Shown piece by piece: positions 3,988 to 62,650 of a stretch of 64,000 nt of DNA. This stretch comes from Escherichia coli (GTDB lineage Bacteria > Pseudomonadota > Gammaproteobacteria > Enterobacterales > Enterobacteriaceae), in NCBI RefSeq assembly GCF_050920415.1, contig NZ_CP169309.1; one strand, 5' to 3'. The translations under genes and the position numbers were made by a program. The notes below the pieces were generated by a model that had not been told where the DNA came from, ran no database searches, and saw only the letters and a list, made by a program, of their open reading frames with translations. Within the stretch, counting starts at the first letter, position 1, and each line of letters begins with the position of its first letter.

Positions 3988-5313
3988 ATGAGTGAGATAT
4001 CCCGGCAAGAGTTTCAGCGTCGCCGTCAGGCCCTGGTGGAGCAAATGCAACCCGGCAGCGCCGCGCTGATTTTTGCTGCACCAGAAGTAACACGTAGCGC
4101 CGACAGCGAATACCCCTATCGTCAGAACAGTGACTTCTGGTACTTCACCGGCTTTAACGAACCGGAAGCGGTGCTGGTGCTGATTAAAAGCGACGACACT
4201 CATAACCACAGCGTTTTGTTTAACCGCGTTCGCGACCTGACGGCAGAGATCTGGTTTGGTCGTCGCCTAGGCCAGGATGCCGCGCCAGAGAAACTGGGCG
4301 TTGACCGCGCACTGGCATTCAGCGAAATCAATCAGCAACTTTATCAACTACTTAATGGTCTGGATGTGGTGTACCACGCCCAGGGCGAATATGCATATGC
4401 TGATGAAATCGTGAACAGCGCGCTGGAAAAACTGCGTAAAGGTTCGCGACAAAATCTCACCGCACCGGCAACGATGATCGACTGGCGTCCCATTGTTCAT
4501 GAAATGCGCCTGTTCAAATCACCAGAAGAGATTGCCGTACTTCGCCGCGCGGGGGAAATCACCGCCCTGGCGCATACCCGGGCGATGGAAAAATGCCGTC
4601 CGGGAATGTTCGAGTACCACCTGGAAGGCGAAATTCACCACGAATTTAACCGCCACGGTGCGCGCTATCCTTCCTATAACACCATTGTCGGCAGCGGTGA
4701 AAACGGCTGCATTCTGCACTACACCGAAAACGAGTGTGAACTGCGTGACGGTGACCTGGTGTTGATTGACGCGGGTTGTGAATACAAAGGTTACGCTGGC
4801 GATATTACCCGCACCTTCCCGGTTAACGGTAAATTCACTCAGGCTCAGCGTGAAATCTACGACATTGTGCTGGAGTCTCTTGAAACCAGCCTGCGCCTGT
4901 ATCGTCCGGGAACGTCCATTCAGGAAGTCACCGGTGAAGTGGTGCGCATCATGGTTAGCGGCCTGGTAAAAATCGGCATCCTGAAAGGTGATGTTGAAGA
5001 ACTGATCGCCCAAAACGCCCATCGTCCTTTCTTTATGCATGGCCTTAGCCACTGGTTAGGTCTGGATGTCCATGATGTTGGCATTTATGGTCAGGATCGC
5101 TCGCGCATTCTGGAACCGGGCATGGTACTGACCGTAGAGCCGGGGCTGTACATTGCGCCGGATGCGGATGTACCAGAACAATATCGCGGTATCGGCATTC
5201 GTATCGAAGACGACATTGTGATTACCGAAACCGGCAATGAAAACCTCACCGCCAGCGTAGTGAAAAAGCCGGGAGAAATTGAAGCGTTGATGGCTGCTGC
5301 GAGAAAGCAATGA
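3988..5313 (+). CDS. pepP: Xaa-Pro aminopeptidase (aminopeptidase P II)
   Basis: Track ORF 3775..5313 is an N-terminally extended frame; real start at ATG 3988 (MSEISRQEFQRRRQAL...) preceded by aaggagag SD; 441 aa; metal-binding M24 motifs (HGLSHWLGLDVHD). Confidence 0.95.
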   Translation: MSEISRQEFQRRRQALVEQMQPGSAALIFAAPEVTRSADSEYPYRQNSDFWYFTGFNEPEAVLVLIKSDDTHNHSVLFNRVRDLTAEIWFGRRLGQDAAPEKLGVDRALAFSEINQQLYQLLNGLDVVYHAQGEYAYADEIVNSALEKLRKGSRQNLTAPATMIDWRPIVHEMRLFKSPEEIAVLRRAGEITALAHTRAMEKCRPGMFEYHLEGEIHHEFNRHGARYPSYNTIVGSGENGCILHYTENECELRDGDLVLIDAGCEYKGYAGDITRTFPVNGKFTQAQREIYDIVLESLETSLRLYRPGTSIQEVTGEVVRIMVSGLVKIGILKGDVEELIAQNAHRPFFMHGLSHWLGLDVHDVGIYGQDRSRILEPGMVLTVEPGLYIAPDADVPEQYRGIGIRIEDDIVITETGNENLTASVVKKPGEIEALMAAARKQ

Positions 5314-6488
5314 GCGTAATCATCGTCGGTGGCGGCATGGCGGGCGCGACGCTGGCGCTGGCTATTTCCCGGTTAAGTCACGGGGCGCTGCCGGTACATT
5401 TGATTGAAGCGACCGCGCCAGAGTCTCATGCTCATCCGGGCTTTGATGGACGAGCGATAGCGCTGGCGGCGGGCACCTGTCAGCAACTGGCGCGCATCGG
5501 CGTCTGGCAATCTCTGGCAGATTGCGCAACCAACATCACTACCGTTCATGTCAGCGATCGTGGTCATGCCGGATTCGTCACCCTCGCCGCAGAAGATTAC
5601 CAACTGGCGGCGTTGGGGCAGGTTGTCGAATTGCATAATGTCGGGCAACGGCTGTTTGCGCTATTGCGCAAAGCGCCTGGCGTAACGCTGCATTGTCCGG
5701 ATCGCGTGGCTAACGTTGCCCGTACTCAGAGTCACGTTGAAGTGACGCTGGAGAGTGGCGAGACGCTGACGGGCTGCGTGCTGGTAGCCGCTGATGGCAC
5801 CCATTCCGCGTTAGCCACCGCGTGCGGTGTTGACTGGCAGCAGGAGCCTTACGAACAACTGGCCGTGATTGCGAACGTTGCGACTTCCGTTGCGCACGAA
5901 GGCCGGGCGTTTGAGCGTTTCACACAATATGGCCCGTTGGCGATGTTGCCGATGTCTGACGGACGCTGTTCGCTGGTCTGGTGTCATCCACTGGAACGGC
6001 GCGAAGAGGTGCTGTCGTGGAGCGACGAGACGTTTTGCCGTGAACTCCAGTCGGCCTTTGGTTGGCGACTTGGGAAAATTACCCACGCTGGTAAACGCAG
6101 TGCTTACCCGCTGGCGTTAACCCGCGCCGCCAGACCTGTTACCCATCGTACCGTGCTGGTGGGCAATGCGGCGCAAACTCTGCACCCGATTGCCGGGCAA
6201 GGGTTCAACCTCGGTATGCGGGATGTGATGAGCCTTGCGGAAACCCTGACTCAGGCGCAAGAGCGCGGAGAAGACATAGGTGATTACGGCGTCTTGTGCC
6301 GTTATCAGCAGCGTCGACAGAGCGATCGAGAAGCAACCATCGGCGTCACTGACAGCCTTGTACATCTTTTTGCCAACCGTTGGACGCCGCTGGTTGTCGG
6401 GCGCAACATCGGGCTGATGGCAATGGAATTATTCACTCCGGCACGCGATGTGCTGGCGCAGCGCACCCTCGGTTGGGTGGCGCGTTAA
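5310..6488 (+). CDS. ubiH: 2-octaprenyl-6-methoxyphenol hydroxylase (FAD-dependent)
   Basis: 392 aa; N-terminal FAD fold GGGMAGATLA; start overlaps pepP stop (ATGA). Confidence 0.95.
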   Translation: MSVIIVGGGMAGATLALAISRLSHGALPVHLIEATAPESHAHPGFDGRAIALAAGTCQQLARIGVWQSLADCATNITTVHVSDRGHAGFVTLAAEDYQLAALGQVVELHNVGQRLFALLRKAPGVTLHCPDRVANVARTQSHVEVTLESGETLTGCVLVAADGTHSALATACGVDWQQEPYEQLAVIANVATSVAHEGRAFERFTQYGPLAMLPMSDGRCSLVWCHPLERREEVLSWSDETFCRELQSAFGWRLGKITHAGKRSAYPLALTRAARPVTHRTVLVGNAAQTLHPIAGQGFNLGMRDVMSLAETLTQAQERGEDIGDYGVLCRYQQRRQSDREATIGVTDSLVHLFANRWTPLVVGRNIGLMAMELFTPARDVLAQRTLGWVAR

Positions 6489-6510
6489 AGGCGGCTTTAA
6501 GGAATAAACA

Positions 6511-61375: not shown

Positions 61376-61555
61376 GTGATCAATAAATTACTGTTAGCTT
61401 ACCTGATAGGTCTGGTTGTGACATCGACTTTAATATTTATCTTCTCGGAAGAAAAAGTAACATATCGGTTGTTTGCTGCAATAATTACAGGTTTAACCTG
61501 GCCGCTTAGTCTCATTCCTTCCATTATAAGTCTCATGATTCGTAAATCCGACTAA
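61376..61555 (+). CDS. small hydrophobic membrane protein (59 aa), hypothetical
   Basis: GTG start preceded at 5 nt by strong SD aaaggggagg; VINKLLLAYLIGLVVTSTLIFIFSEEKVTYRLFAAIITGLTWPLSLIPSIISLMIRKSD has two predicted TM helices; below track length cutoff. Confidence 0.45.
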   Translation: MINKLLLAYLIGLVVTSTLIFIFSEEKVTYRLFAAIITGLTWPLSLIPSIISLMIRKSD

Positions 61556-61900
61556 CAAGAAAATTATATGATCGATTAAGAAAAATAGAATCGAACAGGA
61601 GAATAAAATATATGCGGGGAGTAACAAAACACTCGCAGTGCGTTAATGTGTAACTAACAAATATGATTTGTATTGAAAATAGTCACCAAACAAGTGTTAT
61701 AAGAAATACGGGGTATGTTTAAGTAAAACATATCAACAGTTGCAATTCTGTATATGGACAGGATGACTTACTACTGTAAGTGGCTGATAGCTATTCGCTC
61801 ATAACAAAATGATTATTTTATAAATAGGAATCATCACTTTTTAATCATGTTTTTATTGTAAGTTTATGGAGAATGAGAATATGGAATAAGGAGATGAAAC

Positions 61901-62650
61901 ATGATTGAAGAAGGGCTGTTACTTCCAATGAATGTTTTGCTTCAAGGACAGAAGTTAACCCTACTGGACCCTGAAATGTGGTTCTTACGGGGAAATGAAA
62001 ACAAGGATGTAACCCTTGTTATTACGATTGGTAATAACCATCAAAAATTAATGGTAGTGGAAGACATATTACTGCTCATTGACCGAAGCCAAATTGAGGT
62101 AACTGCAGGGAAAGTAATTTATCATCCACTTCGCATTGATATCCTGAGTAAATTATTAGCTTTTATAGATGAATCAACGGGGAGTGTGGAAAGGGAACAC
62201 CATGACTTGTTTGCTGATGCCTTGCCCTTTGCATCAGAAGTTGTGCTATTCAGTAAAGTTGCAAGTGAAGCCTGGTTTTTAGCCACTTATCTGAGCAGCG
62301 ATAATATTAATGAAATTCTGTTTCAGCATCTAAGAAAAACAGAATGCTATAAACTGGTTCGCTATTTATTATCGCAATCGCTCATACAGACTTCACTCTA
62401 TGATCTTGGTGAGCTTTACGGCGTATCGTATTCACATTTTCGCCGTTTATGTAGTTATGCATTGGGTGGTAAAGTTAAAACGGAATTATGTGGCTGGAGA
62501 GTTGCCAGAGCCGTGTTGGAAATCATTGAAGGAAACAGTGATATGACAACTATTGCGCATAAATATGGCTACTCATCCTCATCACACTTTTCAGCCGAAG
62601 TAAAAAGCCGGTTAGGAAAAACACCGAGAGAACTATGTAAAAAGTTATGA
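61901..62650 (+). CDS. eivF: AraC-family transcriptional regulator, InvF-like (ETT2 EivF-like)
   Basis: 249 aa; C-terminal AraC HTH (YGVSYSHFRRLCS...IAHKYGYSSSSHFSAEVKSRLGKTP); AAGGAG SD; sits directly upstream of and overlapping an InvG-like secretin as invF-invG does in SPI-1. Confidence 0.8.
   Translation: MIEEGLLLPMNVLLQGQKLTLLDPEMWFLRGNENKDVTLVITIGNNHQKLMVVEDILLLIDRSQIEVTAGKVIYHPLRIDILSKLLAFIDESTGSVEREHHDLFADALPFASEVVLFSKVASEAWFLATYLSSDNINEILFQHLRKTECYKLVRYLLSQSLIQTSLYDLGELYGVSYSHFRRLCSYALGGKVKTELCGWRVARAVLEIIEGNSDMTTIAHKYGYSSSSHFSAEVKSRLGKTPRELCKKL

What the first reader, a model, noticed from the sequence alone, without database searches (positions are those of the whole stretch)
5310..62650. 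Multiple 1-20 nt start/stop overlaps indicating translational coupling
Overlaps occur at pepP/ubiH (ATGA, 5310-5313), sdhE/ygfX (20 nt, 17808-17827), ygfT/ygfS (29616), xdhD/ygfM (37309-37312), xdhC/xdhB (54957-54960) and eivF/eivG (ATGA, 62647-62650). These support the operon assignments and the chosen start codons.
Basis: seen in the sequence. Interest (0 to 1): 0.15.

Follow-up and report, generated by a model that had tools for sequence, protein, structure and literature searches.

The report
Ordinary start/stop overlaps between operon genes
Six neighbouring gene pairs in this E. coli chromosome segment really do overlap by 1 to 20 bases, but this is the normal, already catalogued way bacterial operon genes are packed, and whether it couples their translation has not been tested for any of these pairs.

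Summary
They match the RefSeq annotation of a near-identical E. coli chromosome. The pairs are pepP/ubiH -4, sdhE/ygfX -20, ygfT/ygfS -1, ygfM/xdhD -4, xdhB/xdhC -4 and eivF/eivG -4.

The chosen starts hold up. Each is the first start codon in its ORF, apart from one GTG a codon upstream of ygfS. Family profiles begin at residues 1-5 for five of the six proteins. Every later in-frame start would delete conserved N-terminal sequence.

The window is typical, not enriched. 8 of 35 same-strand pairs (23%) lie within -8..+6 nt, against 24% published for E. coli K-12. That paper's table already lists five of the six overlaps.

The one non-canonical case, sdhE/ygfX, is the best conserved. A GTG start and a 20-nt overlap occur in 80/80 Enterobacteriaceae species and in 5 of 6 distant relatives, down to 29% YgfX identity. 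Silent-site variation in sdhE collapses from about 15 nt upstream of the GTG.

"Operon" and "start codon" are supported. "Translational coupling" is a reasonable prior but was not tested for these pairs, and its mechanism in E. coli is disputed. I found no structure blocking any start. Verdict: correct, known, low interest.

The parts
5310..5313 (+). ATGA: pepP stop (TGA) overlapping the ubiH start (ATG), -4
   Evidence: Listed as -4 for K-12 in PMC10666635 Table S2.
3988..5313 (+). pepP (Xaa-Pro aminopeptidase), upstream gene
5310..6488 (+). ubiH, downstream gene. Weak SD (-3.0 kcal/mol). N-terminus MSVIIVGGGMAG carries the FAD-binding GxGxxG motif.
   Evidence: (NF004356 profile 4-395 matches residues 1-392)
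17808..17827 (+). 20-nt out-of-frame overlap: ygfX GTG start to sdhE TGA stop
   Evidence: Present in 80/80 Enterobacteriaceae loci and in 5 of 6 distant relatives.
17561..17827 (+). sdhE (FAD assembly factor), upstream gene
17808..18215 (+). ygfX (cptA), downstream gene with a GTG start
   Evidence: (Pfam Cpta_toxin profile 1-132 matches residues 2-131)
17793..17807 (+). About 15 nt inside sdhE, just upstream of the ygfX GTG, where sdhE silent sites are nearly invariant. Presumed ygfX translation-initiation region.
   Evidence: third-position entropy 0.30 bits against 1.34 bits further upstream; Mann-Whitney p = 8.6e-5
29614..29618 (+). TGATG: ygfT stop and ygfS start share base 29616, -1
   Evidence: Relatives show -4, -1 and -4, with N-termini that align to this ATG.
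27697..29616 (+). ygfT, upstream gene
29616..30104 (+). ygfS (4Fe-4S dicluster protein), downstream gene
   Evidence: residue 1 aligns with profile position 1 of the AegA, YgfT and HydN models
37309..37312 (-). ATGA: ygfM stop overlapping the xdhD start, -4
37309..38088 (-). ygfM (FAD-binding subunit), upstream gene
34442..37312 (-). xdhD (Mo/Fe-S subunit), downstream gene, with a strong SD (GGGGAGGAAG, -11.3 kcal/mol)
   Evidence: TIGR03313 profile 1-951 matches residues 5-955
54957..54960 (-). ATGA: xdhB stop overlapping the xdhC start, -4
   Evidence: marked as a heteromeric complex pair
54957..55835 (-). xdhB (FAD-binding subunit), upstream gene
54481..54960 (-). xdhC (Fe-S subunit), downstream gene, SD -9.4 kcal/mol
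   Evidence: NF007387 profile 1-159 matches residues 1-159
62647..62650 (+). ATGA: eivF stop overlapping the eivG (sctC) start, -4
   Evidence: Also ATGA in a divergent E. coli, in Salmonella invF/invG and in Chromobacterium.
61901..62650 (+). eivF (AraC-type T3SS regulator), upstream gene
62647..64000 (+). eivG / sctC (T3SS secretin), downstream gene that runs off the window. The N-terminus looks like a signal peptide.
   Evidence: (N0 domain from residue 34)

Best explanation
These are six genuine, correctly annotated co-directional gene pairs inside polycistronic operons of an E. coli chromosome. In each pair the downstream initiation site lies inside the 3' end of the upstream ORF.

Five pairs have the canonical geometry in which the stop and start codons share bases (NTGA or TGATG). 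In that geometry a ribosome finishing the upstream gene sits on the next start codon. Downstream translation is therefore expected (inferred, not shown) to depend partly on upstream translation. The route could be re-use of the terminating ribosome, or the terminating ribosome keeping the site open for a fresh 30S subunit.

The degree of dependence probably differs by pair. xdhD and xdhC carry strong Shine-Dalgarno sequences and could also initiate independently. ubiH, ygfS and eivG have weak ones and should lean more on coupling.

sdhE/ygfX is a different case. Its GUG start lies 17 nt upstream of the sdhE stop codon, next to a weak SD. The arrangement has been fixed for a long evolutionary time. 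It most likely sets a low YgfX output relative to SdhE.
For: **Shown**
- Junction sequences and annotation agree.
- Every downstream start is the first start codon after an in-frame stop 9-72 nt upstream.
- Family profiles begin at residues 1-5 of UbiH, YgfS, XdhD, XdhC and YgfX.
- The EivG N-terminus looks like a signal peptide ahead of the N0 domain, which begins at residue 34.
- The next in-frame starts are ubiH codon 10, ygfX 19/32, ygfS 20, xdhD 22, xdhC 46 and eivG 22. Each would delete conserved sequence.
- sdhE/ygfX: a GTG start plus 20-nt overlap in 80/80 species. In 45 of them a stop lies 24 nt upstream with no alternative start. sdhE third-position entropy is 1.34 bits upstream, 0.30 in the 15 nt before the GTG and 0.11 in the overlap (p = 1.2e-5). 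The same geometry holds in 5 of 6 relatives down to 29% identity, including Providencia.
- eivF/eivG: ATGA is also found in Salmonella invF/invG and in Chromobacterium.
- ygfT/ygfS: relatives show -4, -1 and -4.

**From the literature**
- K-12 distances are identical for five pairs.
- pepP insertions are polar on ubiH.
- sdhE and ygfX are co-transcribed.
- 4 of 5 native E. coli -4 pairs were coupled in reporter assays.
- Short overlaps are enriched among subunits of heteromeric complexes. This fits xdhB/xdhC, and plausibly ygfM/xdhD and ygfT/ygfS.
Against: - No experiment addresses coupling at any of these six junctions. I found no start-site profiling, N-terminal proteomics or synthesis-rate data for them.
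- One of five tested native -4 pairs (bioB/bioF) was not coupled.
- Depleting ribosome recycling factor (RRF) left coupling unchanged, which argues against re-initiation as the main mechanism in E. coli.
- pepP/ubiH and eivF/eivG do not encode partner proteins, so a stoichiometry rationale does not apply to them.
- The spacing is evolutionarily labile. PepP-UbiH has a median of +1 with an interquartile range of -4 to 18 over 237 gene pairs. The Yersinia invF/invG-like pair has a +15 gap. One YgfX lineage has a +1 gap.
Confidence: 0.85

Rival explanations
1. The overlaps are annotation artefacts. The true starts lie downstream, leaving gaps between the genes.
For: Start calls for this kind of gene can be inconsistent. 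Providencia YgfX appears in databases at 136, 114 and 97 aa. Some Citrobacter and Salmonella YgfX entries are extended to 152-154 aa. ygfS has a second in-frame start (GTG) one codon upstream.
Against: - Profiles cover the N-termini from residues 1-5.
- YgfX residues 2-13 are invariant across genera.
- Silent-site variation in sdhE is suppressed across the overlap and the 15 nt before it.
- In 45 species a stop 24 nt upstream leaves the GTG as the only available start.
- Later in-frame starts would remove the UbiH GxGxxG strand, the first Cys cluster of YgfS, the N-terminus of the ferredoxin-like 2Fe-2S domain in XdhC and XdhD, or the apparent EivG signal peptide.
Confidence: 0.03
2. The overlaps are real, but the downstream genes are mostly initiated de novo by free 30S subunits. 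Any dependence on upstream translation is small, so the overlap reflects compact packing rather than coupling.
For: - bioB/bioF (-4) showed no coupling.
- xdhD and xdhC have strong SDs (-11.3 and -9.4 kcal/mol).
- No junction folds better than shuffled controls (z from -0.84 to +1.79), so nothing obvious blocks free 30S access.
Against: - 4 of 5 native -4 pairs lost downstream translation when ribosomes stopped early.
- Coupling efficiency falls steeply with distance.
- ubiH, ygfX, ygfS and eivG have SD energies of only -3.0 to -4.2 kcal/mol, against a window median of about -6.
Confidence: 0.25
3. The exact spacing is a near-neutral by-product of start and stop codon drift. NTGA arises easily because any base except C before a TGA stop makes a start-like codon. 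The spacing is not itself maintained by selection.
For: - 13 of 17 TGA-terminated genes in the window already carry an NTGA.
- Spacing varies among relatives: ygfT/ygfS -4, -1, -4; ygfK/ssnA +2 here and -4 in Klebsiella; PepP-UbiH interquartile range -4 to 18; the Yersinia pair at +15.
Against: - There is a sharp genome-wide excess at -4 and -1 over neighbouring distances.
- ATGA is retained between eivF/eivG, Salmonella invF/invG and Chromobacterium at 54-55% secretin identity.
- The 20-nt sdhE/ygfX overlap persists down to 29% YgfX identity.
Confidence: 0.2

Closest known systems
Co-directional gene pairs with -4 (NTGA) or -1 (TGATG/TAATG) start/stop overlaps, coupled by termination-reinitiation (Huber et al. 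2019, PMC6728339; Huber et al. 2023, PMC10666635)
   Same: Five of the six junctions have exactly this geometry. Five of the six pairs appear with the same distances in the K-12 table of the 2023 paper. xdhB/xdhC is marked there as a heteromeric-complex pair.
   Different: None of these pairs was among the hyfHI, astDB, ydbH/ynbE, menDH and bioBF pairs tested experimentally. sdhE/ygfX at -20 lies outside the -8..+10 window those authors treat as predictive.
Salmonella SPI-1 invF/invG (and invG/invE) junctions
   Same: A 249-aa AraC-type regulator gene ends in an ATGA that starts the secretin gene, exactly as in eivF/eivG.
   Different: Secretin identity is only about 54%. The related Yersinia locus has a 15-nt gap instead.
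[quoted passage not shown]
   Same: Adjacent cistrons on one mRNA with stop and start codons close together.
   Different: For those pairs the dependence of downstream on upstream translation was measured (coupling ratios 1.7-7.0). For the six pairs here it was not.
CptA/CptB (YgfX/YgfY), proposed type IV toxin-antitoxin pair, also known as SdhE with its membrane partner YgfX
   Same: The same two genes. The bicistronic, co-transcribed organisation is reported in the literature.
   Different: In Shewanella the two genes are 37 bp apart rather than overlapping, and the toxin-antitoxin reading is disputed there.

Membership tests
Start/stop-codon-sharing overlap pair (-4 NTGA or -1 TRATG) | Two adjacent genes on the same strand | tested here: met
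   All six pairs
Start/stop-codon-sharing overlap pair (-4 NTGA or -1 TRATG) | The upstream stop codon and the downstream start codon share one or two bases | tested here: met
   Met for pepP/ubiH, ygfM/xdhD, xdhB/xdhC and eivF/eivG (ATGA) and for ygfT/ygfS (TGATG). Not met for sdhE/ygfX, where the GTG lies 17 nt before the TGA. I do not file that pair here.
Start/stop-codon-sharing overlap pair (-4 NTGA or -1 TRATG) | Both ORFs are real genes with the stated start | tested here: met
   Profile coverage from residues 1-5, first start in the ORF and cross-species N-terminal agreement
Operon (single transcript) pair | Both genes lie on one mRNA | not testable with these tools
   Implied by the overlap. 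The literature supports it for pepP-ubiH (polarity) and sdhE-ygfX (co-transcription). I found nothing for the other four pairs.
Translationally coupled gene pair | Downstream translation falls when upstream translation is blocked or ended early, at unchanged mRNA level | not testable with these tools
   I found no experiment for any of the six pairs. The prior from tested E. coli -4 pairs is 4 of 5.
Coupling by RNA unfolding | A stable local structure hides the downstream initiation site until the upstream ribosome melts it | tested here: inconclusive
   Folding z-scores for the 90-nt junctions are 0.75, 1.79, -0.33, 1.25, 0.05 and -0.84, so none is unusually stable. A 26-nt hairpin (-6.6 kcal/mol) covers the ygfX GUG in most species. 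It is broken in 18 of 81 sequences and shows no double-sided compensation.
Coupling for subunit stoichiometry (heteromeric complex pairs) | The two products are subunits of one complex | tested here: inconclusive
   xdhB/xdhC are annotated as subunits of one enzyme. ygfM/xdhD are annotated as FAD and Mo/Fe-S subunits. SdhE interacts with YgfX according to the literature. pepP/ubiH and eivF/eivG are functionally unrelated proteins.

The most novel reading that the evidence does not exclude
The sdhE/ygfX junction may be more than a packing accident. It could be a conserved expression-ratio device.

An invariant GUG sits 17 nt before the sdhE stop codon. About 15 nt of constrained sequence precedes it, containing a GGA-loop hairpin. 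The geometry is fixed from Escherichia to Providencia, and in further lineages of unknown taxonomy down to 29% YgfX identity. Together these features could hold production of the membrane protein YgfX at a small, fixed fraction of SdhE.

Two mechanisms are conceivable. Ribosomes translating sdhE might alternately occlude and unmask the GUG. A regulator that binds GGA motifs, such as CsrA/RsmA, might also act at this site.
Probability: 0.15. Interest if true: 0.35.

Novelty: already known. Interest (0 to 1): 0.1.

Why it matters
Practically, it confirms that the gene starts and operon boundaries used for this window are sound. It also shows that the window has the ordinary E. coli density of overlapping genes. 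It opens no new question about translational coupling. The phenomenon is textbook, five of the six overlaps are in a published K-12 table, and the sixth mirrors Salmonella invF/invG. The only modest addition is that the unusual 20-nt sdhE/ygfX overlap and its GTG start are conserved widely across Enterobacterales and carry a clear selection footprint. That settles a start site which databases annotate inconsistently, and it marks this junction as a possible test case for how longer overlaps are translated.

Tried and rejected
**Experimental start-site or synthesis-rate data.**
- The TRAINSPOTTER N-terminomics supplements contain none of these genes.
- No supplements are held for the Ribo-RET preprint or for the RRF-depletion eLife paper.
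- The Li et al. 2014 synthesis-rate paper is not held.
- So I could not compare upstream and downstream translation rates.

**Structure-occlusion coupling.** Folding 90 nt around each junction gave no z-score below -0.84. I rejected this as a general explanation.

**A conserved hairpin at the ygfX start.** It is present in most species. It is broken in 18 of 81 sequences and has only one-sided changes. I kept it as a hypothesis only.

**CsrA control of ygfX.** A full-text search found only the Serratia RsmA paper, where the reported effect is on sdhEygfX expression and acts at least partly through FlhDC, plus a review. There is no direct evidence.

**SdhE-YgfX fusion proteins of 207/217 aa in the protein database.** I considered programmed frameshifting. 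They are singletons with different junctions, against clusters of hundreds to thousands for the separate proteins. A 1-nt deletion gives exactly 217 codons. I read them as indels or assembly errors.

**GTG 29613 as the ygfS start.** I rejected it in favour of ATG 29616. The N-termini of relatives and three profiles align with the ATG.

**Caveat on the 80-species scan.** Loci were picked by YgfX peptides at residues 1-8 and 9-16. The set is therefore biased towards lineages with a conserved N-terminus. The six distant relatives were chosen without that bias.
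Full report
**What the window is.** Window positions 4000-24000 match E. 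coli strain MFDS1022581 (NZ_CP169399.1) over their full length, reported as 100.0% identity. 5,418 of 5,426 complete E. coli genomes hold most of that stretch. Base by base, the window differs from that record at 5 positions in the first 32 kb. It also lacks a 1,232-bp IS3 copy that the record carries at window position 61731/61732. I therefore transferred the RefSeq/PGAP annotation to window coordinates, shifting by 1,232 after the insertion point. Every CDS translated cleanly except prfB, which has its known programmed frameshift.

**Checking the observation.**
- pepP/ubiH: ATGA at 5310-5313.
- sdhE/ygfX: GTG at 17808 and the sdhE TGA at 17825-17827, 20 shared bases, with ygfX in the +1 frame.
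- ygfT/ygfS: GTGATG, sharing base 29616.
- ygfM/xdhD: ATGA on the minus strand at 37312-37309.
- xdhB/xdhC: ATGA on the minus strand at 54960-54957.
- eivF/eivG: ATGA at 62647-62650.

The gene names are right. In other E. coli records the HTH protein is annotated as "type III secretion system transcriptional regulator EivF", and the next gene is the secretin SctC.

**Is it more than chance, and is the window special?**
- The ATGA motif alone means little. Any A before a TGA stop creates it. 7 of the 17 TGA-terminated genes here end in ATGA, and only 4 of those have a gene starting there.
- What is non-random is the concentration at one distance. 4 of the 24 same-strand pairs spaced -20..+60 sit at exactly -4 (P = 2e-4 under a uniform spread).
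- This is the well-known genome-wide peak. In K-12, -4 is the commonest spacing, followed by -1 and -8. 707 of 2,987 unidirectional pairs (24%) lie between -8 and +6 (PMC10666635).
- The window has 8 of 35 such pairs (23%), which is indistinguishable from that figure.

- Each downstream start is the first ATG/GTG/TTG after an in-frame stop 9-72 nt upstream. The only exception is a GTG one codon before the ygfS ATG. Any alternative must therefore lie downstream.
- The next in-frame candidates are ubiH codon 10, ygfX codons 19 and 32, ygfS codon 20, xdhD codon 22, xdhC codon 46 and eivG codon 22.
- Curated profiles start at the very N-terminus. UbiH residues 1-392 match NF004356 positions 4-395. 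XdhC 1-159 matches 1-159 of 159. XdhD 5-955 matches 1-951 of 951. YgfS residue 1 matches position 1 of three models. YgfX residues 2-131 match positions 1-132 of Pfam Cpta_toxin.
- EivG begins with what looks like a signal peptide, ahead of the secretin N0 domain at residue 34.
- The downstream alternatives would delete conserved sequence. The refutation fails.

**The non-canonical pair, sdhE/ygfX.** Profiles inherit annotated starts, so I looked for evidence at the DNA level.
- A scan of one genome per species returned 80 Enterobacteriaceae loci. All 80 have GTG at the homologous position and the sdhE TGA 20 nt further on. My ORF picker mis-scored one locus, but its junction sequence is the same.
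- In 45 of the 80, an in-frame stop lies only 24 nt upstream with no other start codon.
- The silent (third) positions of sdhE codons vary freely upstream, with a mean entropy of 1.34 bits over 14 sites. They are nearly frozen in the 15 nt before the GTG (0.30 bits) and in the overlap (0.11 bits). The Mann-Whitney p value is 1.2e-5.
- The T that turns the sdhE Arg codon CGT into the middle base of GTG never changes.
- That scan was seeded with YgfX N-terminal peptides. I therefore took six distant relatives from an unbiased search and fetched their DNA. Five of the six keep a GTG start and a 20-nt overlap, at 52% down to 29% YgfX identity. The sdhE stop is TGA or TAA at the same place. One of these lineages is Providencia alcalifaciens.
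- The exception has a 1-nt gap and a better SD, and it still starts with GTG.
- In Shewanella the genes are reported to be 37 bp apart (PMC8621075).
- The least canonical overlap is therefore real, old and under selection.
- Databases are not consistent about this start. Providencia YgfX is recorded at 136, 114 and 97 aa.

**Other junctions across species.**
- eivF/eivG occurs in 982 of 5,426 E. coli genomes. ATGA is kept in the most divergent E. coli copy sampled.
- In Salmonella SPI-1, invF (249 aa) and invG overlap by the same ATGA, as do invG and invE. Chromobacterium also has ATGA. The Yersinia enterocolitica locus has a 15-nt gap.
- ygfT/ygfS relatives show -4 (Pseudocitrobacter), -1 (Klebsiella) and -4 (Pantoea). 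Their N-termini align with the E. coli ATG at 29616, which favours ATG (-1) over the GTG at 29613.
- Published tables of orthologous-group (COG) pairs give PepP-UbiH a median spacing of +1, with quartiles -4 and 18 (n = 237). The FAD-subunit to Mo-subunit pair has a median of -3.4 (n = 403).
- Short overlap is therefore common and often kept, but the exact spacing drifts.

**How it most likely works.**
- Shown: the downstream initiation sites lie inside the upstream ORFs.
- Inferred: the genes are co-transcribed. The literature supports this for pepP-ubiH, where IS1 in pepP lowers ubiH expression (PMC4999529), and for sdhE-ygfX (PMC5042078).
- Inferred: some degree of translational coupling. 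In reporter assays 4 of 5 native E. coli -4 pairs lost downstream translation when upstream ribosomes stopped early (PMC6728339). Efficiency fell steeply with distance (PMC10666635).
- SD strengths split the six genes. xdhD (-11.3) and xdhC (-9.4 kcal/mol) could also initiate on their own. ubiH, ygfX, ygfS and eivG (-3.0 to -4.2, against a window median near -6) look more dependent.
- No junction is more structured than shuffled controls, so an unfolding-type mechanism has no specific support.
- The mechanism itself is disputed. [quoted passage not shown] That led its authors to favour de novo initiation (PMC7538156). A 2025 review leaves both models open (PMC12548453).
- For ygfX, a GUG start, a weak SD and a position 17 nt before the stop codon all predict low output relative to SdhE. 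A 26-nt hairpin with GGA in its loop covers the GUG in most species, but it is not supported by compensatory changes.

**Comparison with what is known, and verdict.**
- Five of the six overlaps are listed with identical distances for K-12 in Table S2 of PMC10666635.
- The sixth is annotated in RefSeq and mirrors Salmonella invF/invG.
The operon and start-codon claims hold, although the start evidence is what establishes the overlap and not the reverse. Coupling is plausible but untested.
- This is already-known, ordinary operon architecture, and I score it low.
- The only small addition is the broad conservation and selection footprint of the 20-nt sdhE/ygfX overlap and its GTG start.

Noticed in passing
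window 61731/61732: The best-matching record (NZ_CP169399.1) carries a 1,232-bp IS3-family insertion here, between the GhoT/OrtT-like toxin gene and eivF. The window lacks it. Otherwise the two differ at only 5 bases in the first 32 kb.
   Followed up: partly
window 17793-17818: Silent sites of sdhE are almost invariant for about 15 nt upstream of the ygfX GTG across 81 sequences. The region can form a 26-nt hairpin (-6.6 kcal/mol) with GGAACG in the loop and the GUG at the loop/stem edge. 18 of 81 sequences break a pair, and no pair shows changes on both sides.
   Followed up: yes
proteins P0004-P0009, P0012, P0013, P0021; window 17561-18215: The protein database holds rare SdhE-YgfX 'fusion' proteins of 166-217 aa that carry both Pfam domains. 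A 1-nt deletion near the overlap gives exactly 217 codons. They are singletons with different junctions, so sequencing or assembly indels are likelier than frameshifting.
   Followed up: partly
cluster of P0275, locus L090: Providencia YgfX is recorded at 136, 114 and 97 aa in different records. Some Citrobacter and Salmonella entries are extended to 152-154 aa. The start of this gene is called inconsistently in public databases.
   Followed up: partly
In a Klebsiella locus (L094) the homologous ygfK-like and ssnA-like genes overlap by 4 nt.
   Followed up: partly
window 25620-25712 (+) and 25687-25812 (-): A 30-aa hypothetical ORF and the 41-aa yqfG are annotated on opposite strands and overlap by 26 nt at their 3' ends. 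I did not assess whether the hypothetical ORF is real.
   Followed up: no
window 22349-23447, site at 22421: prfB carries its programmed +1 frameshift site (CTT TGA C, preceded by the SD-like AGGGGG). This is why its straight translation contains an internal stop.
   Followed up: partly
window 12660-12721: The gcvP-ygfF spacer is 60 nt here but is listed as 266 nt for K-12 in PMC10666635 Table S2. The cause could be an indel or a different ygfF start. I did not examine it.
   Followed up: no
window 1863-2013 (-), 2662-2845 (-), 16150-16227 (-), 59393-59463 (+): Rfam hits above the gathering threshold: SIB RNA antisense to ibsC, 6S RNA, naRNA4 between trhA and ygfZ, and the tRNA-Gly gene. Downstream of the tRNA gene come a GH15 gene, a GhoT/OrtT-like toxin gene and the type III secretion genes.
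   Followed up: no
locus L084 3186-3189: In Salmonella SPI-1 the next junction, invG/invE, is also an ATGA overlap. Overlaps therefore continue down that operon.
   Followed up: no
window 29616-30104 and 27697-29616: YgfS aligns along its whole length with the N-terminal ferredoxin-like region of the YgfT and AegA models. The small downstream protein therefore resembles the N-terminal domain of its upstream neighbour.
   Followed up: no
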